A DNA stretch of 64,000 bases from Trypanosoma brucei (lineage: Eukaryota): the NCBI GenBank assembly GCA_000002445.1, contig CM000208.1, positions 2,080,001-2,144,000 on the forward strand. The letters are read 5' to 3'. The notes beneath the pieces are model-generated. The model did no database searches. It had not been told where the DNA came from and saw nothing but the letters and a program-made list of their open reading frames with translations. The position numbers were made by a program, and so were the translations under genes. Shown here one piece after another: positions 1,594 to 12,488 of the stretch. Position 1 is the stretch's first letter; each line of letters begins with the position of its first letter.

Positions 1594-2325
1594 GTGTGTG
1601 TGGCTCTGCGGAAGAGGAGAGTGTGGCTTGAGGAGTTATTAGCGATGTTGAAGAGAGGTGGGTTAAACGGAGTGAAAGTAATTGTGATTGGTGATGGGAA
1701 TGTTGGGAAATCGTCTTTGCTGCGGCGCTTCGTCACGGGCACATTTAGTAATCAGTACAATAGGACTGTCGGTGTGGAGTATATGGAGAAGAGCGTTTGC
1801 CTCCGTCAACGTAGCACGACAGTGAACCTCTTTCTTTGGGATACGGCTGGGCAAGAAACAGTTAGTTCTGTAAAGGATATCTATTACCTTGATGCCGCGG
1901 TGGCTATCCTGGTTTTCAGCACCGACAGTAGCGAGAGTTTTGCGAGAATAGAGATGTGGAAGAGGTGCGTTGAGCGTGTGTGTGGAAGCATACCAATGGT
2001 TCTGTGCCAGACAAAGTTTGATCTTGCACGGCAGGCCGCTGTAGTGGCTGAAGAGGTGGAGAAACTCGCTGTTAAGTTGCAGTTGCCTTTGTTTCGCGTC
2101 TCTACGAAGGATGGATTTAATGTCACCCAGTTGTTCGAGTACGTGGCAGCAATGTGCGTTAGCGAGGCACCGGGGGGCGAATGTGGACCGAGCGGCAAAT
2201 TAAAGAGTGAGGCGGATGGAAACGGCTCCACAGGTGCGGGGAACGCAGGGAAGTCATCGAAATCTGGTGGAGCGGGGAAGAAGTCGTCCAAAAAGTCAAA
2301 GAAGAAAAAGTGCAGTGTTATGTAG
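1594..2325 (+). CDS. RAB23: Rab23-like small GTPase. The true start is possibly the internal ATG at 1645.
   Basis: G1 GDGNVGKSS, G3 WDTAGQE, G4 TKFD, and the block ILVFSTDSSESF, which closely matches Rab23 VLVFSTTDRESF. RVSTKDGFNVTQLFEYVA resembles Rab23 YRTSVKEDLNVNEVFKYLA. The C-terminus is polybasic and ends in a single-Cys CAAX-type box (KKSKKKKCSVM), as in Rab23 (CSVP) and unlike the CC/CXC of most Rabs. Confidence 0.8.
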   Translation: MCVALRKRRVWLEELLAMLKRGGLNGVKVIVIGDGNVGKSSLLRRFVTGTFSNQYNRTVGVEYMEKSVCLRQRSTTVNLFLWDTAGQETVSSVKDIYYLDAAVAILVFSTDSSESFARIEMWKRCVERVCGSIPMVLCQTKFDLARQAAVVAEEVEKLAVKLQLPLFRVSTKDGFNVTQLFEYVAAMCVSEAPGGECGPSGKLKSEADGNGSTGAGNAGKSSKSGGAGKKSSKKSKKKKCSVM

Positions 2326-2890: not shown

Positions 2891-4756
2891 ATGCCACTTT
2901 TTAAACCATCGGAAATACCTGATAATTCGGCGACGGTCCCGCCCGTCACTGGTTGTCGAGACGGTTGTGTGGCGAGCGGCTTTGACAGCTACCCACGCGG
3001 GTTGATCGACCGATGTTCTGTTGGTGGTAGGACGAACATTTGGCCCATACATCCGGATGTACAGCAGGCAATACAGCTGGGCAAACATTTAAACATGAAG
3101 GCTGTCGTCCGTGGTATGAGAGGCACTGGAAAGTCCACAGTTGTCTCGAGGCTCTGCGGTTACGTGCCCGCTACTCGCTATACTCCATCAACAGGGATCA
3201 GCGCTGGGACGTTTTTTTATAGAAGCCGCACTTCAACCAATACTATGGTAGAGTGTGGGGGAGCAAAGGTTGAGTTATGGGATGTTGTCGACGATGCAAC
3301 ACCCTCTGGCACATCCGGCACGGTAGCGGATATGCACACCGTGGATGTTTACCGCGGCTGCCATGTCGCTCTATTTGTCATTGATAGGAGACGGAAAGAG
3401 TCGCTCGAGTACGTTGTGCGTGAAGCGCCCCACGTCCCACCAACCACATGTATCGTAATTGTAATTAACTTCCGCGATGCCCCCAGGGAGTCGCTTGTTG
3501 TGTCGGAGCGTGACGTTAGTGCCGTGTGCAAATCCCTTCGCCGGACGACAACTCCGATGGTTTTGGCGGTGTCTGGCGGTCGACCGCCTCTGGAATGTTA
3601 TTCGACGTCGGCAATATTTGTGAGCATCAGTGCGGTGACAGGTGATGGCATGGAATCCCTATGGGATGCTTTTGAGACGCCATTCCTCCTTGTTAAGGTG
3701 CTGTCGCTTGAAGGGGAGATAAATTCTTGTTTCCAGCACATTGAGCGTCATAGCACCCGGACATTAGACGAGTCAGCAAGGCGCCAGTTGCATGAGAAGG
3801 AGGAACTGCGGAGGTTGCGCAAGGAGAGAGAAATGGGTGAGGCACGCAGTGGACATAATCCCCGCAGAGGCGATTGCGCCCCGCCGACACCGCGAAGAGA
3901 AGTCCTTTCCCTCACGCACGCGACGACGCGCGGTTGCGGAGGCGTGGTGTGTGAGGAAGAGGATGTGGAGGAAAATGGGATAGCGAAGGGCTTCTTTGAT
4001 GACCTTGAAGGTGATGAGACATGTGAAGAATGCTTTGGGGACGTTGGCGGCCATATTGGTGTCCAGAGCAGCGAGGCTGCAGCGGACGACGAGGCGGAGA
4101 CGCTCAGCAGCAGCCATAATGCTAGTTGTGTCCGTCGTTTGCCATCCCCAGTTGTGGCAGCGGCCGCATCACTGTTACGGGGGGACAAAGCAGTAGCAGG
4201 GGATTCATTAACTTCTATTGGCGGTTATACTGATAGTTTCCATGCGAACATGCCCCGAACAAGCAATTTGGAGGGGAGCACGTTTGACGGTCGTGGTGGC
4301 GGTTTTAGTTTAGGGGAGGCGGCGACGTTGGACGATGGTTTCTTTAGTGTCGGGGGAGATGAAGAGGAAGAGGAGTTACGCCTGACAGATGAAGAGTCCC
4401 TTGCAGGAAACGGCAGCGATGCTGATGAGAGTCTACCACCAAGGACTCGGATACAGTTGAAGGAACCCGTGTCGGTGAATTCCCTACCGGGAGCTGAACA
4501 GTCGGCGGTGATGACATCCAGCATGAAGGCAAATATCGATGTTCTTTTACGAGAAATGCAGAGCGTATTGCTAACGTCAACCGGATCTAAACCCAAGTCA
4601 CGGCCAGAGCGCAGTAGCAGGCAAAGAAGCAACCGCGACCGCAAAAATAGGGAGTTAAGACGCCGGAGGGCGCATGGCGCCGCTGAGTGTGGGGAGAAAA
4701 AGGAGATACACTGTGACAAATACGATGATGGAACGTTTGAGGTTATACGAGATTGA
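2891..4756 (+). CDS. Divergent Rab-like GTPase-domain protein (candidate pseudo-GTPase) with a ~380-aa acidic, low-complexity C-terminal extension.
   Basis: A 621-aa ORF. The P-loop is intact (GMRGTGKST) and the effector-region pattern is Rab-like (YTPSTGISAGTFFY). G3 is degenerate (ELWDVVDD instead of WDTAGQ, so the catalytic Gln is absent), G4 is NFRD instead of NKxD, and G5 is ISAVTG. The tail is rich in D/E/S/G. Confidence 0.65.
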   Translation: MPLFKPSEIPDNSATVPPVTGCRDGCVASGFDSYPRGLIDRCSVGGRTNIWPIHPDVQQAIQLGKHLNMKAVVRGMRGTGKSTVVSRLCGYVPATRYTPSTGISAGTFFYRSRTSTNTMVECGGAKVELWDVVDDATPSGTSGTVADMHTVDVYRGCHVALFVIDRRRKESLEYVVREAPHVPPTTCIVIVINFRDAPRESLVVSERDVSAVCKSLRRTTTPMVLAVSGGRPPLECYSTSAIFVSISAVTGDGMESLWDAFETPFLLVKVLSLEGEINSCFQHIERHSTRTLDESARRQLHEKEELRRLRKEREMGEARSGHNPRRGDCAPPTPRREVLSLTHATTRGCGGVVCEEEDVEENGIAKGFFDDLEGDETCEECFGDVGGHIGVQSSEAAADDEAETLSSSHNASCVRRLPSPVVAAAASLLRGDKAVAGDSLTSIGGYTDSFHANMPRTSNLEGSTFDGRGGGFSLGEAATLDDGFFSVGGDEEEEELRLTDEESLAGNGSDADESLPPRTRIQLKEPVSVNSLPGAEQSAVMTSSMKANIDVLLREMQSVLLTSTGSKPKSRPERSSRQRSNRDRKNRELRRRRAHGAAECGEKKEIHCDKYDDGTFEVIRD

Positions 4757-5389
4757 CAGACCGTATGGCATTTAACGTTGCTGAATCCGTTACTCTGGCG
4801 ACGACTTTCTCCTTCCTTCTGCTCCCCCCGTTTCCCCCTCCTCTGAATGTTTGCTTTGTAATTATCATCAGCTAATTTTTACACTAGTTTCTTGCTGTTT
4901 CCACGAGTTTATTTATTTTTTACTCTTTTGTGTTGAATTCCGCTCCGGAGGTTGCTTCTCTGCATTTTTTTTTCCAAGGGCGAAGCAAGCAGGGGGAAAA
5001 GGCACGTGGAAAACCTAATTTTTGGTGATGTATTTCTTCATATTCCTCTCTTTTTTTTTAATTCTGCAGAATCTGTCGAAATCAAGTGCTTTCCAACGCT
5101 TATCTTTTGTTGTTGTTTTTTCGCACCGGGTGATATGTTCTTTCAACGCTGGCGCCGCTGTTGCTTCCTGAGTTCCTGCTGGTCCTCGTACCGTAAAAAA
5201 CTTTTCTTTTCACGTTGTTCAATTTTTTTGCATACCTTCCAACCGCTGCGTGAATCGAAACCAAACCAAGACAACGACTGTGAATCAGCACAAATTGATT
5301 GTCAAAAGAACGGTGCTGTTATCGTCATTCTTACTTCGTCTGGCTCTGGGGCCGCAGGTGAAGACGTGCTCCCCCCCAATCCGCCACGC

Positions 5390-5962
5390 ATGGGCCTGTT
5401 GGAGTTCCTTCTCAAGATCCGACCCTTTTCGCGCCGAACGCGTCGGATCCTGATGCTCGGCCTTGACAACGCCGGTAAGACGCGTCTTTTGAGGAGGATA
5501 TGTGAAGAGGAAGTATCCGACACTTTCCCAACGCAGGGGTTTAACATTCAAAACATCACCGCAGATGAGTTGAAATTTGTTGTGTGGGACGTTGGAGGTC
5601 AGAAGTCTCTCCGATCTTACTGGCGGCACTACTTTGACCATACTGATGCGCTCGTGTTCGTTATTGATTCTGCTGATATGGAGAGGATAGAGGAAGCAAG
5701 GACGGAGCTTCACTATATTTTAGAGGAGGAAAAGTTAGTAGGTGTGCCGCTTCTGCTGTTTGCGAACAAGCAAGACATCCCAGAAGCGGCGTCGCAGGAG
5801 GAGGTTATGTCATCACTCAACCTGCGTGACACAATTAATCGCCCATGGCACATCGAGCTCTGCTCGGCTGAGACAGGGGAGGGGTTGAGCTCCGGCTTGT
5901 CGTGGGTGGTAGACACCCTGAAAAAGAGACGCCCATCGTTAAGGCCAGACGGCCAAGTATAA
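5390..5962 (+). CDS. ARL2: ADP-ribosylation factor-like GTPase 2 (ARL2-like). The ORF nominally opens at 4952, but the upstream part is a pyrimidine-rich non-coding leader.
   Basis: Compared with human ARL2 (MGLLTILKK...LLMLGLDNAGKTT...WDVGGQKSLRSYWRNYF...NKQD...CSA), this ORF has MGLLEFLLK...ILMLGLDNAGKTR...WDVGGQKSLRSYWRHYF...FANKQD...CSAETGEGL. The N-terminal Gly2 is suitable for the Arf-family N-terminus. The in-frame ATG sits at 5390-5392. Confidence 0.88.
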   Translation: MGLLEFLLKIRPFSRRTRRILMLGLDNAGKTRLLRRICEEEVSDTFPTQGFNIQNITADELKFVVWDVGGQKSLRSYWRHYFDHTDALVFVIDSADMERIEEARTELHYILEEEKLVGVPLLLFANKQDIPEAASQEEVMSSLNLRDTINRPWHIELCSAETGEGLSSGLSWVVDTLKKRRPSLRPDGQV

Positions 5963-7044: not shown

Positions 7045-10000
7045 GTGCCCCCTCTTTCGTCTTTGCTATGGGGCCATGCGCACCCATATATAAAGGTGGC
7101 AATCCAAATCCAGAAGTGGGCACTTCCAAGGATGCAAAGTGGTGTGGGTAACATTACAACTCCCACGTCGCCGCAACAACTTGTTGTAGAAGCTCCTGCT
7201 GAACTCCTGGAAACCTGTGGAGTGCAGTATCCTGCGGCGGCTGATGTGAATGAGGGCGAGGTTGTGGATTCCAAAGCCCTTTCTGCAGCCCCCGGGGAAC
7301 GTGACGTCTTGGGATGTGGACCCACACTGCTGTCACTTTTATACAGCACCCAAAAGAAGGACGAAGTAGGGCATCGCGCAGTAACGCCAATGTTGTGGGA
7401 GTGCAACGGAGCTCAAGAAAGATGCCACTCATCGAAACGGGACTTTACAACATGTGTGAAGGCGCGGAAGTCCCCTCCTCCGGGCTCTGCAACGGGGTCT
7501 GGAACTGGGGCCATTAGGGATGTTCTCAGACCGTATAGAGAGTCACACAGTAAACGGTTTCGTGCGAAGGTAGTGGATTGCCGCGCGGCTCTTTCAGTAG
7601 ACGACCAAATCATCACCCTCAAAAACGAGAACGCTAAATATAAGGCTCAGTTACTCACCAAAGATGTGCAGCTGAAGGAGCTTGAGGCAGCACTTCGTGC
7701 GTTTCGAGCGCCGAGGGTTCCGGTTCCCTCGGGCGTGACAGAACCTGCTGAAGTAGGGGGGTGTTATAATGGCACGGACACTGAGGTGGCGCGTCTTACC
7801 AGAGAAAATGGTGAGGTGTGGAGGCGGCTGCAGCAATCACATGCCCAGTTGGCAGTCTGGAAAAGGGATGCACGGGTTTCGAAGTTGCAGGAGTTGAAGA
7901 TGGAGTTGGCTGTTTATCAGGCCGAAGTGGCTCGCCTCGCGGCTGAGGTTCCATCTAGTGGCGGCGCTGGAGGTGCACAAAATCACCCAGCTAGGTCGAA
8001 GTTACAGAGAGAAGCGGAGACTTCACGGGCAAAGGATCTCTTTATCGCTGAGCTAAAGGAAAGAGCGTCTGAGAACGCTACAGCACTGCGAAAATGCATG
8101 GACGACGCTATGCGCACAAAAAGTACCCTTGAGCAGGTCCGGGAGGAGAATGAGTTGATATCTAAGGAGTTGTGCTTGTTCAGAAAAACGGCCTTAGCTC
8201 TGACACGGGTGCAGGAGGAACTGAGGGCCACCCAGTGTGAGCTGGCTGAGGCTCGAGAGCGGCTTCAAGCCTTCGAACAGATGATGCACACGGTGGGAGG
8301 TCCTGAGGAGGTAAAGGCTGTGGTTAAGGAACGTGATGCCCTTTTGACCCTGTTAAAGCAGCATAATGCACGCGAAGCGGCATATCACCAGGAGTTTTTC
8401 ACCCGCCAGCGCGAAATGAAGGAGTCTATGGAGCGGTGCCTTCAGGAAGCTGTTCAACAAGAACGAGCACTGGCTCAGGATAGAGAGATGCAGCTTCGAC
8501 GCTCTTGCTTGATGTGGAAAGAAAGGTGCGAGCGACTGCTTCCAGACAAGTTGTTCGAACAGGGACGTCTTATAGAGGGTGGTGGAACCGTTGTAGAAGA
8601 TGAGGAACAGCAGACCGAGTTACACCAACTACCCAAGAAAATAGTAACCCCTTTCATGGATAATTCACAGAGGCAGCGGTTGCTTACAAAGCATATTGAC
8701 GATGTTCTAATCGTCCGGCAAGTCTCGTCGACGAGCACGCCGGCCAGTTCGTCAACCACTCTCTCCCCCGTGTCGGGTCTCTCGAAATTGTCCATAACCG
8801 ACACTACCCAGAGCCAAAGTAGCTCTCATGGCATGCAAATCAGCCACCCAGGGAACGAAGACGCATCTTCGCCTGTGAAGGGAAATGTAATGTCTTCACA
8901 GAAAGGGAGCTCTGGCGACGCTCCCGTTCCACCCACAGAGAGAACCGATCCCGACGGTGGCGCCGTTAGCTATCCAGCAAGCTCCGCCGTAATATCTGCA
9001 GAGCGGACTTCACTGGTTGAGAACAGCAAGGGCGATATCGTCACGTCGATTTCAACAGAGGAGGGTGCGGTTCAACTGCCTAGAGGACTGATGACCGCTG
9101 GTGTTGATTCTAGTGATGATTCAGGCAGCGAGTTGAGCGACCTTGCTGTGGGAATAGAGGAGGGCAAAACCCCATCATTTCGACTGCATGGCAATAGCGA
9201 TGGGCAATTAATCCCTGAAGTTGTCTCCAGGATGCCCTTAACTCTGCGCACGGTGAGCAGCGATGGCGTAGCTGCAGTTCTTACAGTTGCTTCACCACCT
9301 CCAAGAGTTTCTGTGCCACCGGCACCTGTCCCACGAGAATCTGCAGGATCTATTGCTTCATCTGAGAATAAACTCTCTGATGTGAATGTTGCCGTGCCAC
9401 CTCCAAGAGTTTCTGTGCCACCGGCACCTGTCCCACGAGAATCTGCAGGATCTATTGCTTCATCTGAGAATGAGCTCTCTGATGTGAATGTTGCCGTGCC
9501 ACCTCCGAGAGTTTCTGTGCCACCGGCACCTGTCCCACGAGAATCTGCAGGATCTATTGCTTCATCTGAGAATGAGCTCTCTGATGTGAATGTTGCCGTG
9601 CCACCTCCAAGAGTTTCTGTGCCACCGGCACCTGTCCCACGAGAATCTGCAGGATCTATTGCTTCATCTGAGAATGAGCTCTCTGATGTGAATGTTGCCG
9701 TGCCACCTCCGAGAGTTTCTGTGCCACCGGCACCTGTCCCACGAGAATCTGCAGGATCTATTGCTTCATCTGAGAATAAACTCTCTGATGTGAATGTTGC
9801 CGTGCCACCTCCAAGAGTTTCTGTGCCACCGGCACCTGTCCCACGAGAATCTGCAGGATCTATTGCTTCATCTGAGAATGAGCTCTCTGATGTGAATGTT
9901 GCCGTGCCACCTCCAAGAGTTTCTGTGCCACCGGCACCTGTCCCACGAGAATCTGCAGGATCTATTGCTTCATCTGAGAATAAACTCTCTGATGTGAATG

Positions 10001-10968
10001 TTGCCGTGCCACCTCCAAGAGTTTCTGTGCCACCGGCACCTGTCCCACGAGAATCTGCAGGATCTATTGCTTCATCTGAGAATAAACTCTCTGATGTGAA
10101 TGTTGCCGTGCCACCTCCAAGAGTTTCTGTGCCACCGGCACCTGTCCCACGAGAATCTGCAGGATCTATTGCTTCATCTGAGAATGAGCTCTCTGATGTG
10201 AATGTTGCCGTGCCACCTCCAAGAGTTTCTGTGCCACCGGCACCTGTCCCACGAGAATCTGCAGGATCTATTGCTTCATCTGAGAATGAGCTCTCTGATG
10301 TGAATGTTGCCGTGCCACCTCCGAGAGTTTCTGTGCCACCGGCACCTGTCCCACGAGAATCTGCAGGATCTATTGCTTCATCTGAGAATAAACTCTCTGA
10401 TGTGAATGTTGCCGTGCCACCTCCGAGAGTTTCTGTGCCACCGGCACCTGTCCCACGAGAATCTGCAGGATCTATTGCTTCATCTGAGAATAAACTCTCT
10501 GATGTGAATGTTGCCGTGCCACCTCCGAGAGTTTCTGTGCCACCGGCACCTGTCCCACGAGAATCTGCAGGATCTATTGCTTCATCTGAGAATAAACTCT
10601 CTGATGTGAATGTTGCCGTGCCACCTCCAAGAGTTTCTGTGCCACCGGCACCTGTCCCACGAGAATCTGCAGGATCTATTGCTTCATCTGAGAATGAGCT
10701 CTCTGATGTGAATGTTGCCGTGCCACCTCCAAGAGTTTCTGTGCCACCGGCACCTGTCCCACGAGAATCTGCAGGATCTATTGCTTCATCTGAGAATGAG
10801 CTCTCTGATGTGAATGTTGCCGTGCCACCTCCAAGAGTTTCTGTGCCACCGGCACCTGTCCCACGAGAATCTGCAGGATCTATTGCTTCATCTGAGAATA
10901 AACTCTCTGATGTGAATGTTGCCGTGCCACCTCCGAGAGTTTCTGTGCCACCGGCACCAGTTCCGTGA
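7045..10968 (+). CDS. Coiled-coil protein with a C-terminal tandem array of 34-aa repeats (repetitive cytoskeletal or antigen-like protein). The true start may be a downstream ATG, for example near 7132.
   Basis: A 1307-aa ORF. Codons ~185-520 have a heptad-rich, coiled-coil-type composition (KNENAKYKAQLLTKDVQLKELEAALRAF...), followed by a Ser/Thr-rich linker and then ~16.5 copies of NVAVPPPRVSVPPAPVPRESAGSIASSEN(K/E)LSDV. A polypyrimidine tract lies immediately 5' (6990-7040). Confidence 0.8.
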   Translation: MPPLSSLLWGHAHPYIKVAIQIQKWALPRMQSGVGNITTPTSPQQLVVEAPAELLETCGVQYPAAADVNEGEVVDSKALSAAPGERDVLGCGPTLLSLLYSTQKKDEVGHRAVTPMLWECNGAQERCHSSKRDFTTCVKARKSPPPGSATGSGTGAIRDVLRPYRESHSKRFRAKVVDCRAALSVDDQIITLKNENAKYKAQLLTKDVQLKELEAALRAFRAPRVPVPSGVTEPAEVGGCYNGTDTEVARLTRENGEVWRRLQQSHAQLAVWKRDARVSKLQELKMELAVYQAEVARLAAEVPSSGGAGGAQNHPARSKLQREAETSRAKDLFIAELKERASENATALRKCMDDAMRTKSTLEQVREENELISKELCLFRKTALALTRVQEELRATQCELAEARERLQAFEQMMHTVGGPEEVKAVVKERDALLTLLKQHNAREAAYHQEFFTRQREMKESMERCLQEAVQQERALAQDREMQLRRSCLMWKERCERLLPDKLFEQGRLIEGGGTVVEDEEQQTELHQLPKKIVTPFMDNSQRQRLLTKHIDDVLIVRQVSSTSTPASSSTTLSPVSGLSKLSITDTTQSQSSSHGMQISHPGNEDASSPVKGNVMSSQKGSSGDAPVPPTERTDPDGGAVSYPASSAVISAERTSLVENSKGDIVTSISTEEGAVQLPRGLMTAGVDSSDDSGSELSDLAVGIEEGKTPSFRLHGNSDGQLIPEVVSRMPLTLRTVSSDGVAAVLTVASPPPRVSVPPAPVPRESAGSIASSENKLSDVNVAVPPPRVSVPPAPVPRESAGSIASSENELSDVNVAVPPPRVSVPPAPVPRESAGSIASSENELSDVNVAVPPPRVSVPPAPVPRESAGSIASSENELSDVNVAVPPPRVSVPPAPVPRESAGSIASSENKLSDVNVAVPPPRVSVPPAPVPRESAGSIASSENELSDVNVAVPPPRVSVPPAPVPRESAGSIASSENKLSDVNVAVPPPRVSVPPAPVPRESAGSIASSENKLSDVNVAVPPPRVSVPPAPVPRESAGSIASSENELSDVNVAVPPPRVSVPPAPVPRESAGSIASSENELSDVNVAVPPPRVSVPPAPVPRESAGSIASSENKLSDVNVAVPPPRVSVPPAPVPRESAGSIASSENKLSDVNVAVPPPRVSVPPAPVPRESAGSIASSENKLSDVNVAVPPPRVSVPPAPVPRESAGSIASSENELSDVNVAVPPPRVSVPPAPVPRESAGSIASSENELSDVNVAVPPPRVSVPPAPVPRESAGSIASSENKLSDVNVAVPPPRVSVPPAPVP
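9283..10968 (+). repeat. Coding tandem repeat of a 102-bp unit, ~16.5 copies, >97% identical.
   Basis: Period measured directly: the ccaagagtttctgtgcca motif occurs at 9301 and 9403, giving 102 bp. Units differ only at aaa/gag (K/E) and cca/ccg (silent). The array terminates at a TGA created within a decayed last unit (cca cga gaa -> ccg tga gaa). Confidence 0.95.
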
Positions 10969-12488
10969 GAAGTACACCAGGTGACGATTTTGTTGTGTGT
11001 GTGTGTGGTTGCGTAGCGGTTGTGCATGGGCATTTCGCTATCGTTAAGGTTACTACGGCTTCTATTGAGTGAGTGCACACTTTTTTCATGCTTTTGGTAC
11101 GGCAAACATTTAGACTGTGAGGAAGGTTGCCATTAGTACTTGGTTCTTTGACGGTGCTGTGTTTCTACTCGTGGTGTATGGTGGAAGGTACCTGCTGCTT
11201 ACTTTTTCTTTGATGGGAAACAATCGCCACTGTAGGCGTCTTCCACTTTCAGTTTCCACATTGAATCGAACGGAATTAGTTTACTTCGCGATTCTTTTCG
11301 TTTGTAGAGTTATTTGTTTGACTTCTACTGTTATCCGTCCCCTGTGACTATCTCTAAATTTATGCACCTCCTTTTTGTCTTTTTTTTTTGCGGTCGCACA
11401 TGCGCTTTTCTTTGACACGTACGCGTATTGCCACCGCAGATGGGCACGTCAAGATGAGGTATGTGGTGTTCATATTCATAGAGTTCTTTGTGGTTGAGCG
11501 CCGCTATCGGTTGCAGTGTAAAGGATGCACAGTGGTGTCTGCTTTTATGCTTTGGATTTGTCCTGTCACTCGGCAATGAGTTTGTGCTTGTTTTTTTTCC
11601 TTCCGTCCATCTGGTACGTCGTTTATTTCTGCGCCATTCGTCATTATTATTCTTTAAAGTGCTGTGTGTGCACTTCGATATAATGGAGTACGGTATGCGA
11701 CGAAAGGGGGGGGTGGCGAGAGGAATCAATCCGGGGATACAGTTTTTAAAGTCATTTTTACCTATCGATTATTGATCATGTGTTACTCTGAAACACGTTG
11801 ACGCTCTGTTGCCTCATTTCCCGTTTGATTTTTTTCCCGCCATATTTATCGCAGCCGATAGTGGACACAATGTCGGCATGATTCACGTGTTTCTGCCGCA
11901 CTCTGATAAGCTAGTCGTGAACGTCGGTGTATGAGGCGTTTAAGTGTATGAGCAGGGGTCGGGAGGCGGTTCCGCTCCCGTTTTTCCAGTGTGTAGTTGC
12001 CTATATTGCTCTCCTCTACGGTATGGTGAAGCGCTTCCTTTGCTTGGAGGTCGGAGTGTGCGGTGTTTTGCCCCCCGTCTTGTTTGCGGTGCTGGCAGAG
12101 AAGCCGTTGATCTCCGCAAGGTGCCGTCGCACTCTGATGGTGGCAGTGGTGTAACCCAACCGAAGAAAAATTACCTGAAGTGCTGCATCTGCCGTTTTGA
12201 GCTGCAGCTTCGCCTTAGTTTACGGCATTCAGGAGTTACGGTGAGCTGATCGGGAAAGACAATGATGTGCTGGTACAGATTTTGCCACATTTGTGCATAC
12301 TTCCCCCTTGTGATGATATGCTTCTTGCTTGTACCCCTGCTTTTCCTTTTTTCATGTGGGACCACATCGCCTGGGAGATGATGCGTTAACCAACTTTCAC
12401 TTTCTTGTCTTAAAATTGAACCGCTACGTGACTTACTGTAAAGAGGATCAAGAGGTTGTGAAGGAGGATACAGTCACGAATAGCAGTT

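What the first reader, a model, noticed from the sequence alone, without database searches (positions are those of the whole stretch)
2891..4756. Rab-like GTPase domain lacking the catalytic glutamine and the NKxD motif, fused to a long acidic tail: candidate pseudo-GTPase.
The P-loop (GTGKST) and a Rab-like switch I pattern are retained. The DxxGQ motif is WDVVDD, so neither the Gly nor the Gln is present, and G4 is NFRD. Such proteins typically bind nucleotide constitutively or not at all and act as scaffolds. The ~380-residue C-terminal extension is Asp/Glu/Ser/Gly-rich (EEEDVEENG..., GGDEEEEELRLTDEES), which is unusual for a small GTPase. This architecture is not one I can assign to a named family.
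Basis: partly seen in the sequence, partly recalled or inferred. Interest (0 to 1): 0.55.

Follow-up and report, generated by a model that had tools for sequence, protein, structure and literature searches.

The report
Trypanosome RABL6 (Rab-like 6) orthologue
This gene is the Trypanosoma brucei copy of RABL6, an ancient and poorly understood Rab-like GTPase found across eukaryotes, and its "missing" GTPase motifs and long charged tail are the normal hallmarks of that family, not a new kind of protein.

Summary
The ORF at 2891..4756 (+) is real. It encodes a 621-aa protein 100% identical to T. brucei TREU927 XP_823083.1/Q38AB5, annotated "hypothetical protein, conserved" and probably Tb927.10.8570. 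They are not a degenerate oddity. An exhaustive profile search found 588 relatives, and nearly all of the best 150 carry WDVVD[K/E]G and N[F/H/Y]RD. The named ones are "Rab-like protein 6" (RABL6/Parf/RBEL1/C9orf86). A trypanosome-versus-animal RABL6 profile comparison gives 99.8% probability (E 1.5e-29). A deep-alignment AlphaFold model (pLDDT 90.6) is a Rab-type G domain followed by a long helix. Every nucleotide-contacting position is conserved (Lys/Ser of G1, switch-I Ser/Thr, Asp of G3, Asn and Asp of G4, Ser of G5). Only Gly60, Gln61 and Lys117 (Ras numbering) are replaced, and the Gly60 position holds an acidic residue in all 88 aligned sequences. Human RABL6 is reported to bind GTP and GDP. 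"Binds no nucleotide" is therefore unlikely, while "mostly GTP-bound, atypical or slow hydrolysis" remains plausible. This is a new, uncharacterised member of a known family, of modest interest.

The parts
2891..4756 (+). Complete ORF (621 aa plus stop) of the T. brucei RABL6-family protein (XP_823083.1 / Q38AB5; probably Tb927.10.8570)
   Evidence: ORF listing. 100% identity over 621 aa to P0151, T. b. brucei TREU927 'hypothetical protein, conserved'.
3059..3676 (+). Rab-like G domain (aa ~57-262), including the conserved N-terminal helix that precedes strand beta-1
3113..3136 (+). G1 / P-loop GMRGTGKS (aa 75-82); K81 = Ras K16, S82 = Ras S17
   Evidence: G75, G80 and K81 are invariant in the 88-sequence family alignment. 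Mapping to H-Ras.
3179..3199 (+). Switch I / G2 YTPSTGI (aa 97-103); S100 sits at the position of the Mg-binding Thr35 of Ras
   Evidence: Y97 in 78/88 and T/S100 in 86/88. The family Thr aligns with the switch-I Thr of Rab1a in the PDB profile alignment and with Ras T35.
3278..3298 (+). G3 WDVVDDA (aa 130-136): family signature that replaces DTAGQE; D134 replaces Gly60 and D135 replaces Gln61
   Evidence: W130 in 88/88, D/E131 in 88/88, D/E134 in 88/88, position 135 variable (K27, E24, R9...), G136 in 66/88. Motif present in nearly all of the top 150 hits. Mapping.
3467..3478 (+). G4 NFRD (aa 193-196): Asn and Asp of NKxD kept, Lys replaced by Phe
   Evidence: N193 in 83/88, F194 in 64/88 plus H in 11/88, D196 in 87/88. 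Mapping N116/K117/D119.
3629..3637 (+). G5 SAV (aa 247-249), equivalent of Ras S145-A146-K147
   Evidence: S247 in 82/88. Mapping.
3674..3802 (+). Long helix immediately after the G domain (aa ~262-304, 'ETPFLLVKVLSLEGEINSCFQ...'), conserved family-wide; corresponds to human RBEL1A region 236-302
   Evidence: Model helix H231-272 with pLDDT 96-98. P264 in 79/88, L268 in 61/88, L273 in 57/88, L277 in 50/88. Aligned to animal 'FNxPFLQLQRETLLxQLE'. The human region is reported as required for the GTP-bound state (PMC10622986).
3845..4753 (+). Low-complexity, probably disordered C-terminal tail (aa 319-621): acidic core, then basic patch; no C-terminal Cys prenylation motif (ends ...FEVIRD)
   Evidence: Composition and charge profile. 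Poorly conserved even among Trypanosoma species apart from one short motif. Family members are mostly 400-850 aa. Disorder itself is inferred and was not modelled.
3971..4018 (+). Tail motif copy 1, ENGIAKGFFDDLEGDE (aa 361-376): aromatic pair followed by an acidic run
   Evidence: It is the only conserved block in the tail among T. brucei, T. congolense and T. vivax. A Phe column is near-invariant in the family tails (80/83). The pattern is found in 79 of 131 tails against 4.6 expected from shuffles.
4331..4378 (+). Tail motif copy 2, DDGFFSVGGDEEEEEL (aa 481-496)
   Evidence: Read directly from the sequence. Same GFF-plus-acidic pattern as copy 1. Its conservation was not tested separately.
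4589..4669 (+). Basic patch KPKSRPERSSRQRSNRDRKNRELRRRR (aa 567-593), resembling a nuclear localisation signal
   Evidence: aa 560-600 are 34% K+R with pI 11.9. Lys-rich columns occur near the C-terminus in the family alignments. Human RBEL1A has a C-terminal NLS at aa 652-701 (PMC10622986). NLS function here is inferred.

Best explanation
The ORF encodes the Trypanosoma brucei member, and most likely orthologue, of RABL6 (Rab-like protein 6, also called Parf, RBEL1 or C9orf86), an ancient pan-eukaryotic branch of the Ras superfamily.

Its parts are:
- a Rab-type G domain with an intact nucleotide-binding pocket: P-loop Lys/Ser, switch-I Ser, G3 Asp, G4 Asn and Asp, G5 Ser;
- a family-specific, remodelled switch II in which Gly60/Gln61 (Ras numbering) are replaced by an always-acidic residue (D134) followed by a variable residue;
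- a conserved long helix directly after the G domain;
- a disordered tail carrying short aromatic-acidic motifs and a basic, NLS-like patch.

The most likely working model is inferred largely from the human protein. The G domain binds guanine nucleotide and sits mostly in the GTP form, because canonical Gln-dependent hydrolysis is impossible. The adjoining helix stabilises that state. The tail recruits partners and influences the distribution between nucleus and cytoplasm. The protein would then act as a nucleotide-dependent adaptor, not as a membrane-anchored Rab, since it has no prenylation motif.

Shown here: family membership, fold, motif conservation, conserved synteny. Inferred: nucleotide binding, slow or atypical hydrolysis, the roles of the helix and the tail, and the cellular function, which is unknown even in model organisms.
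For: Identity: 100% identical to T. brucei XP_823083.1.

Family membership:
- The exhaustive HMMER search found 588 relatives at E<=1e-3 and 299 at E<=1e-10.
- Nearly all of the top 150 carry WDVVD and N[FHY]xD.
- The named members are 'Rab-like protein 6' from Haliotis, Holothuria, Propithecus and Sphaerodactylus.
- BLASTP to lemur RABL6 gives E 1e-21 over the G domain plus helix.
- hhalign of trypanosome versus animal-only RABL6 gives 99.8%, E 1.5e-29, 202 columns.
- The animal-only RABL6 HMM scores this protein 58.9 bits, against 10.9 for TbRab23 and 1.4 for TbArl3B.

Fold: AF2 pLDDT 90.6. Best structural matches are Rabs. The profile against PDB sequences hits Rab1a, Rab22a, Sec4 and Ran at about 1e-11 to 1e-13, and no RABL6 entry was found by sequence in the PDB.

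Pocket conservation across 88 sequences: with mapping.

Conservation within the lineage: orthologues in T. congolense, T. vivax, T. grayi, T. melophagium, Bodo saltans, Trypanoplasma borreli, Leptomonas, diplonemids and Euglena. The gene order DnaJ - Rab - this gene - Arf/Arl is conserved in Bodo.

Biochemistry of the human homologue: GTP/GDP binding, more than 95% GTP-bound, T57N abolishes binding, region 236-302 needed for the GTP state, C-terminal NLS (PMC10622986).

RABL6 is treated as an ancestral Ras-superfamily member of unknown role in PMC13393502.
Against: - No experiment exists on the trypanosome protein. No paper in the library mentions Tb927.10.8570 or links RABL6 to trypanosomes in substance.
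- Identity to animal RABL6 is only about 24-27%, and no phylogeny against all Ras-superfamily branches was made. Strict 1:1 orthology is therefore inferred from profile scores, signature motifs and the single T. brucei cluster among the hits.
- T. brucei departs from the family consensus at G136 (Ala instead of Gly) and at position 135 (Asp instead of Lys/Glu), so its nucleotide handling could differ from the human protein.
- The known human partners (ARF, p53, Rb pathway) have, to my knowledge, no kinetoplastid counterparts, so the human functional model cannot simply be transferred.
- Model coordinates could not be inspected, so the pocket geometry and the packing of the helix were not checked.
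Confidence: 0.9

Rival explanations
1. It is a true pseudo-GTPase. The RABL6-type G domain, at least in trypanosomes, binds nucleotide constitutively without ever hydrolysing it, or binds none, and serves purely as a structural scaffold.
For: Gly60 and Gln61 equivalents are absent. Switch II is replaced by a variable, low-complexity loop. Human RBEL1A is reported as constitutively (>95%) GTP-bound, and no GAP or GEF is known (PMC10622986). T. brucei also lacks the family's G136.
Against: Every nucleotide- and Mg-contacting position is strongly conserved over a very wide evolutionary range, which argues against a pocket that binds nothing. The residue replacing Gly60 is acidic in 88/88 sequences, which looks like selection for a function at the gamma-phosphate site and not like decay. 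Short human isoforms are predominantly GDP-bound, and one group states that all isoforms have GTPase activity (PMC3839920).
Confidence: 0.25
2. It is an active GTPase with a non-canonical catalytic mechanism. The invariant acidic residue at the Gly60 position (D134), or a residue supplied in trans by a partner or by dimerisation through the post-G helix, substitutes for the missing Gln. This would resemble GTPases in which the catalytic Gln is replaced by another residue and catalysis is supplied from elsewhere.
For: D/E at position 134 in 88/88 and D/E at position 131 in 88/88. PMC3839920 states that the isoforms have GTPase activity. GDP-bound short isoforms in human cells imply that GTP is turned over or that GDP is loaded. 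The helix next to the G domain is conserved and alters the nucleotide state in the human protein.
Against: No kinetic data were accessible, because the primary JBC papers are not held. An acidic side chain next to the gamma-phosphate could equally disfavour GTP or coordinate a cation without catalysis. The model coordinates could not be inspected.
Confidence: 0.3
3. It is a lineage-specific, fast-evolving kinetoplastid Rab paralogue (like RabX1-3) that only converges on RABL6-like motifs.
For: T. brucei has divergent Rab-related genes (PMC2748683). Identity to animal RABL6 is low (24-27%). The gene lies next to Rab23, which could suggest a tandem duplicate.
Against: The profile comparison to animal-only RABL6 gives 99.8% / E 1.5e-29, and the adjacent Rab23 scores only 10.9 bits against the RABL6 HMM. 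The similarity extends beyond the G boxes into the N-terminal helix and the post-G helix. Pfam Ras does not hit at E<=1. The hits form a continuous series running from kinetoplastids through diplonemids, Euglena, a chlorarachniophyte and an ichthyosporean to animals.
Confidence: 0.03
4. The motif loss is an artefact of a frameshift, an assembly error or a pseudogene.
For: None found.
Against: The ORF is uninterrupted over 621 aa. The identical protein is present in independent T. brucei, T. b. gambiense and T. equiperdum assemblies. The same motifs occur in all orthologues.
Confidence: 0.01

Closest known systems
RABL6 / Rab-like protein 6 (Parf, RBEL1A-D, C9orf86) of animals
   Same: - N-terminal Rab-like G domain with G1 GxxxxGK[ST], G3 WDVVD, G4 N[F/H/Y]RD and G5 S[M/A].
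- A conserved helix before strand beta-1 ('...G..xNMK').
- A conserved long helix right after the G domain (human 236-302).
- A tail of several hundred residues with acidic stretches, aromatic-acidic short motifs and a basic C-terminal cluster.
- No prenylation motif in the long form.
   Evidence: PMC10622986.
   Different: - Only about 24-27% identity.
- The T. brucei switch II loop is about 14 residues shorter than in animals.
- There is an extra ~14-17 residues between G4 and G5 ('TTPMVLAVSGGRPPLECYS'), shared with other kinetoplastids and with some unnamed environmental family members in the alignment.
- A136 replaces the family Gly.
- The tail is not proline-rich as in human.
- The animal 'NPMVAGFQxDLDSDD' tail motif is not detectably present.
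- The known human partners (ARF, p53/MDM2, Rb pathway) are, to my knowledge, absent from kinetoplastids.
Canonical Rab GTPases (e.g. Rab11, Rab1, Rab3, Rab28; the neighbouring TbRab23)
   Different: No DTAGQE. No Lys in G4. No C-terminal Cys prenylation motif. About 360 extra C-terminal residues. Pfam Ras does not match at E<=1. TbRab23 scores only 10.9 bits against the RABL6 HMM.
Other 'Rab-like' atypical GTPases (RABL2, RABL3, IFT27/RABL4, IFT22/RABL5)
   Different: Those are small proteins (185-266 aa) with cilium-related roles, whereas RABL6 is the large outlier with no established ciliary role (bioRxiv 10.1101/2022.03.14.484356). They are not specifically related to one another (PMC4736243).
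Nucleotide-binding pseudoGTPases without catalytic residues (e.g. Rnd proteins, RhoH), cited from my own knowledge
   Same: Replacement of the catalytic Gln, and a reported predominantly GTP-bound state for the human RABL6 long isoforms.
   Different: A different subfamily. Lack of hydrolysis has not been shown for RABL6. The Gly60 position is occupied by a conserved acid, not by a random substitution.

Membership tests
RABL6 (Rab-like protein 6) family | Significant sequence/profile similarity to proteins named RABL6, stronger than to other Ras-superfamily members | tested here: met
   hhalign 99.8%, E 1.5e-29 against the animal-only alignment. Animal-only HMM: 58.9 bits, against 10.9 for TbRab23 and 1.4 for TbArl3B. 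BLASTP 1e-21 to lemur RABL6. Named RABL6 proteins are among the hits of the trypanosome profile.
RABL6 (Rab-like protein 6) family | G3 signature W-D-V-V-D (acidic residue in place of Gly60, no Gln61) | tested here: met
   WDVVDD at aa 130-135. W in 88/88 and D/E at both acidic positions in 88/88 family sequences.
RABL6 (Rab-like protein 6) family | G4 signature N-[F/H/Y]-x-D in place of NKxD | tested here: met
   NFRD at aa 193-196. N in 83/88, F in 64/88 plus H in 11/88, D in 87/88.
RABL6 (Rab-like protein 6) family | Conserved helix immediately C-terminal to the G domain ('PFLxLxxxxLExQL', human 236-302) | tested here: met
   aa 262-304 modelled as one helix with pLDDT 96-98. Aligned with the animal segment. 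Column conservation.
RABL6 (Rab-like protein 6) family | Long low-complexity C-terminal extension with acidic stretches and a basic C-terminal cluster; no prenylation motif in the long form | tested here: met
   Tail aa 319-621, acidic core pI 4.05, basic patch pI 11.9, C-terminus ...FEVIRD. Family lengths are mostly 400-850 aa. Human architecture from PMC10622986.
RABL6 (Rab-like protein 6) family | Strict 1:1 orthology (monophyly with RABL6 in a Ras-superfamily phylogeny; single copy) | tested here: inconclusive
   Only one T. brucei cluster appears among the top 150 hits, and synteny is conserved to Bodo. No phylogeny with outgroup families and no whole-proteome reciprocal search could be run.
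RABL6 (Rab-like protein 6) family | Binds GTP/GDP; long isoforms mostly GTP-bound | not testable with these tools
   Known only for the human protein (PMC10622986). Here only conservation of the binding residues was shown.
Canonical Rab family | Match to Pfam Ras (PF00071) above threshold | tested here: not met
   No Ras hit at E<=1. Only Roc at 23.7 bits, below its cut-off of 27. The neighbouring TbRab23 scores 145.6 bits in the same call.
Canonical Rab family | DTAGQE switch II with catalytic Gln, and NKxD | tested here: not met
   WDVVDDA and NFRD.
Canonical Rab family | C-terminal Cys prenylation motif (CC, CXC, CAAX) | tested here: not met
   The C-terminus is ...GTFEVIRD.
PseudoGTPase (functional class) | Loss of catalytic residues (Gln61 equivalent) | tested here: met
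   D135 at the Gln61 position. That position is variable across the family (K, E, R, V, Q...).
PseudoGTPase (functional class) | Loss of nucleotide-binding residues (for the non-binding class) | tested here: not met
   K81, S82, S100, D131, N193, D196 and S247 are all present and conserved family-wide.
PseudoGTPase (functional class) | Experimentally shown absence of GTP hydrolysis | not testable with these tools
   No kinetic data were accessible. Statements in the literature conflict.

The most novel reading that the evidence does not exclude
RABL6 may be an ancestral eukaryotic GTPase with a switch mechanism of its own. An invariant acidic residue replaces the gamma-phosphate-sensing glycine, an adjoining helix sets the nucleotide state, and a disordered tail carries an ancient aromatic-acidic docking motif, found in 79 of 131 tails from kinetoplastids to animals. 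Trypanosomes lack, to my knowledge, the ARF/p53/Rb partners, so the T. brucei protein would expose the family's unknown ancestral role. That role could be tied to basal-body/centriole or nuclear functions, given the centrosome phenotype in mouse cells and the flagellum-related neighbouring genes. None of this was tested here.
Probability: 0.2. Interest if true: 0.55.

Novelty: new member of a known kind. Interest (0 to 1): 0.3.

Why it matters
The finding gives a family name, RABL6, to a T. brucei gene that has sat in the databases as 'unknown' or 'hypothetical protein'. An early partial entry (O76226, AAC32773.1, 559 aa) already listed it as 'unknown protein'. The odd motifs turn out to be a conserved family signature and not decay.

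RABL6 is studied almost only as a human oncoprotein. Its basic biochemistry (GAP, GEF, hydrolysis mechanism, structure) and its ancestral cellular role are unknown (PMC10622986; PMC13393502).

A genetically tractable organism that has the protein but, to my knowledge, lacks its known mammalian partners could help define the conserved core function. The family-wide features documented here give concrete targets for mutagenesis: the invariant acidic residue at the Gly60 position, the post-G helix, and the aromatic-acidic tail motif.

As a genome-scan finding it is nevertheless ordinary: a divergent orthologue of a known family.

Tried and rejected
1. The first AlphaFold run used only three trypanosome sequences and gave an unusable model (pLDDT 36.7). 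It was replaced by the 88-sequence run.
2. Pfam, and single-sequence PDB searches, gave nothing above threshold, which probably explains the 'hypothetical' annotation.
3. The word-index homology search found only two close relatives with the single sequence and four with a diverse profile. It could not supply a named taxon census, so the idea that the family's distribution follows cilia or centrioles stayed untested.
4. The afdb50 fold library was not available.
5. The primary biochemical paper (PMC2709392) is not held, so nucleotide-binding data come second-hand from a review.
6. I considered that the animal tail motif 'NPMVAGFQxDLDSDD' is homologous to the T. brucei 'ENGIAKGFFDDLEGDE'. An HMM of the animal motif finds 15 other family members at E<=0.01 (none in shuffled controls) but no kinetoplastid. 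Only the simpler aromatic-acidic pattern is claimed.
8. I considered an FFAT-like (VAP-binding) reading of 'GFFDD' with its acidic flank. The family consensus has Asp/Gly where FFAT needs a small residue. The idea was not pursued and is not claimed.
9. Searches for the gene ID or its neighbours' old IDs found no functional data.
10. Frameshift/artefact and tandem-duplicate-of-Rab23 explanations were rejected.
Full report
**1. Observation**

The window is trypanosomatid-like: long same-strand gene arrays at about 50% GC. An ATG-to-stop ORF of 621 codons occupies exactly 2891..4756 on the + strand. Its product is 100% identical over all 621 residues to T. brucei brucei TREU927 XP_823083.1 / UniProt Q38AB5, annotated "hypothetical protein, conserved". 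Near-identical copies exist in T. b. gambiense, T. b. equiperdum and T. equiperdum, and an old 559-aa GenBank entry (O76226) is labelled "unknown protein".

- P-loop GMRGTGKS (aa 75-82)
- WDVVDD (aa 130-135)
- NFRD (aa 193-196)
- a long charged tail

**2. Artefact ruled out**

Orthologues in T. congolense (59% identity) and T. vivax (53%) keep the same unusual motifs, WDVVD/WDVAD and NFQD/NFHD.

**3. What it is**

Pfam gives only a sub-threshold Roc hit (23.7 bits against a cut-off of 27) and no Ras hit at E<=1. The neighbouring Rab scores 145.6 bits in the same scan. A single-sequence PDB search finds nothing.

An exhaustive HMMER search with a three-species profile of the conserved N-terminal 274 positions found 588 proteins at E<=1e-3, 299 at E<=1e-10 and 42 at E<=1e-30. 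Most are 400-850 aa long. Nearly all of the best 150 share G1 GxxxxGK[ST], G3 [VIL]WDVVD[K/E]G and G4 N[F/H/Y]xD.

Cluster look-ups name the animal hits "Rab-like protein 6" (Haliotis, Holothuria, Propithecus, Sphaerodactylus). They also show the family in:
- T. grayi ("putative small G-protein") and T. melophagium
- Bodo saltans ("ras-related GTP-binding protein, putative")
- Trypanoplasma borreli
- Leptomonas
- the diplonemids Diplonema and Flectonema
- Euglena
- the chlorarachniophyte Amorphochlora
- the ichthyosporean Chromosphaera

Direct tests of the link:

| Test | Result |
|---|---|
| BLASTP to lemur RABL6 | E 1e-21, 26% identity over 290 residues (G domain plus following helix) |
| hhalign, trypanosome alignment vs animal-only RABL6 alignment | 99.8% probability, E 1.5e-29, 202 columns |
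| Animal-only RABL6 HMM, this protein | 58.9 bits |
| Same HMM, adjacent TbRab23 | 10.9 bits |
| Same HMM, adjacent TbArl3B | 1.4 bits |

In Bodo saltans the gene lies in the same order, DnaJ - Rab - this gene - Arf-like - large protein. That supports positional orthology across Kinetoplastea.

A 2026 survey of Ras-superfamily genes treats RABL6 as an ancestral member that was lost in Microsporidia, and says understanding of its cellular role is limited or absent even in model taxa (PMC13393502).

I therefore file the protein as the T. brucei member of the RABL6 (Parf/RBEL1/C9orf86) family. Strict 1:1 orthology still needs a phylogeny.

**4. Anatomy**

With an 88-sequence alignment, AlphaFold2 gives a confident model (mean pLDDT 90.6, pTM 0.85). 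It consists of a short helix, a Rab-type six-stranded G domain (aa ~57-262), and a single long helix (aa ~262-304, pLDDT 96-98).

Residue mapping to H-Ras and to the canonical TbRab23 next door, with conservation across the 88 family sequences.

| Ras position | T. brucei residue | Conservation in the family |
|---|---|---|
| K16 | K81 | invariant |
| S17 | S82 | Ser or Thr in all 88 rows |
| T35 | S100 | T/S in 86/88 |
| (precedes D57) | W130 | 88/88 |
| D57 | D131 | D/E in 88/88 |
| G60 | D134 | D/E in 88/88 |
| Q61 | D135 | variable (K, E, R, V, Q...) |
| E62 | A136 | G in 66/88 |
| N116 | N193 | 83/88 |
| K117 | F194 | F in 64/88, H in 11/88 |
| D119 | D196 | 87/88 |
| S145 | S247 | 82/88 |

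The nucleotide- and Mg-binding positions are intact and under strong constraint. Three things differ from the canonical pattern: the gamma-phosphate-sensing Gly, the catalytic Gln and the G4 Lys. The Gly is replaced by an always-acidic residue, which looks like a selected feature and not like decay. The claim that NKxD is lacking is an overstatement.

The tail (aa 319-621) has three parts:
- an acidic core (aa 350-525, 22.7% D+E, pI 4.05);
- two "GFF + acidic run" motifs, ENGIAKGFFDDLEGDE at aa 361-376 and DDGFFSVGGDEEEEEL at aa 481-496;
- a basic patch at about aa 567-593 (the measured stretch, aa 560-600, is 34% K+R with pI 11.9).

The protein ends ...FEVIRD, without a prenylation cysteine.

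The first GFF motif is the only conserved block in the tail among Trypanosoma species. Across the family, 79 of 131 tails contain a strict xxF[FLYW][DEGNS][DEGNS] pattern, against 4.6 expected from shuffled tails. An HMM of the animal-specific "NPMVAGFQxDLDSDD" motif does not reach kinetoplastids, so I claim only the simple aromatic-acidic motif as shared.

This layout parallels human RBEL1A: G domain at 39-235, a regulatory region at 236-302, a long low-complexity region, and a C-terminal NLS at 652-701 (PMC10622986).

**5. How it most likely works**

Shown here: family membership, fold, conserved binding residues, conserved post-G helix, tail motifs.

Inferred from the human protein (PMC10622986):
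- guanine-nucleotide binding, which is abolished by P-loop T57N in the human protein;
- a steady state that is mostly GTP-bound (>95% for the long isoforms);
- dependence of that state on the segment equivalent to aa 262-304;
- distribution between nucleus and cytoplasm.

My best model is a nucleotide-dependent, non-membrane-anchored adaptor. Its G domain cannot use Gln-dependent hydrolysis, and its tail recruits partners.

Three readings of its catalytic status remain open. It may be catalytically dead (a pseudo-GTPase of the nucleotide-binding kind), it may use a non-canonical catalytic residue such as D134, or it may need a partner. One group states that the isoforms have GTPase activity (PMC3839920), and the short human isoforms are mainly GDP-bound. 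The cellular function in trypanosomes is unknown. No paper in the library mentions the gene.

**6. Comparison and novelty**

The closest known family is RABL6, and every sequence-level defining feature I could test is met. Canonical Rab membership fails on Pfam Ras, DTAGQE/NKxD and prenylation.

This is a new, uncharacterised member of a known family. The "pseudo-GTPase" idea is only partly supported.

Interest is modest. A specialist would not be surprised that trypanosomes have RABL6. The family's mechanism and ancestral role are nonetheless open questions, and a tractable organism that, to my knowledge, lacks the mammalian partners could be useful for addressing them.

**7. Surroundings**

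The upstream gene (1645..2325) is TbRab23, Tb927.10.8560, a flagellar Rab (PMC3138460). The downstream gene (5390..5962) is TbArl3B, Tb927.10.8580. The gene in between is therefore presumably Tb927.10.8570, an ID inferred from the numbering. The antisense ORFs inside the gene (3748..4188, 3773..4117 and 4225..4719, all on the - strand) were not investigated; they lie entirely within the conserved coding region and I take them to be chance ORFs.

Noticed in passing
window 3971-4018 and 4331-4378 (aa 361-376 and 481-496 of the ORF): There are two copies of a 'GFF + acidic run' short motif in the disordered tail. A related aromatic-acidic pattern occurs in 79 of 131 RABL6-family tails, against 4.6 expected from shuffles. 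In many non-kinetoplastid members it is bipartite ('[DE][DE]F[VI]P...LDxxF[FL][DN]D'). I found no description of it in the papers read. It may be a conserved partner-docking motif.
   Followed up: partly
window 1645-2325 (+), 2891-4756 (+), 5390-5962 (+); L001 4719-9181: Three Ras-superfamily genes lie side by side: TbRab23 (flagellar), the RABL6 homologue and TbArl3B. The same Rab - RABL6 - Arf-like order, preceded by a DnaJ gene, is kept in Bodo saltans. Gene order in kinetoplastid transcription units usually carries no functional meaning, but this arrangement is old.
   Followed up: partly
window 9295-10958 (within ORF 7045..10968, +): A 102-bp tandem repeat with 16.3 copies at 98% identity encodes a 34-aa Pro/Ser/Val-rich unit (PPPRVSVPPAPVPRESAGSIASSEN[K/E]LSDVNVAV) at the C-terminal end of a 1307-aa ORF. 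Copies differ mainly by a K/E alternation. An ORF of 677 aa on the opposite strand (9072..11105) overlaps the repeats, most likely because the repeat itself keeps that frame free of stop codons.
   Followed up: no
window 1645-2325 (+), TbRab23: The canonical Rab next door has its own G4 deviation, TKFD instead of NKxD, while keeping WDTAGQE.
   Followed up: no
family members P0023, P0025-P0028, P0033, P0035 (only P0025 was identified, as Leptomonas seymouri; the rest are grouped with it by sequence similarity): In this subgroup, which includes Leptomonas seymouri, both acidic residues of G3 are Glu instead of Asp (WE[AV]VEEG), and the loop after G3 is about 20 residues longer ('...IPAAQLQEALRVAADAR...'). 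The post-G segment has also lost the family's conserved Pro ('ALHVASTLLRI'). This is a coordinated drift of switch II and the adjoining helix in one lineage.
   Followed up: no
window 4952-5389 (+), upstream of the TbArl3B start: The mechanical ORF containing TbArl3B extends 146 codons upstream of the MGLLEF start. Some database entries (T. b. gambiense 276 aa, T. equiperdum 275 aa) use a longer N-terminus than the 190-aa TREU927 model. The start-codon annotation of this neighbour is inconsistent between strains.
   Followed up: no
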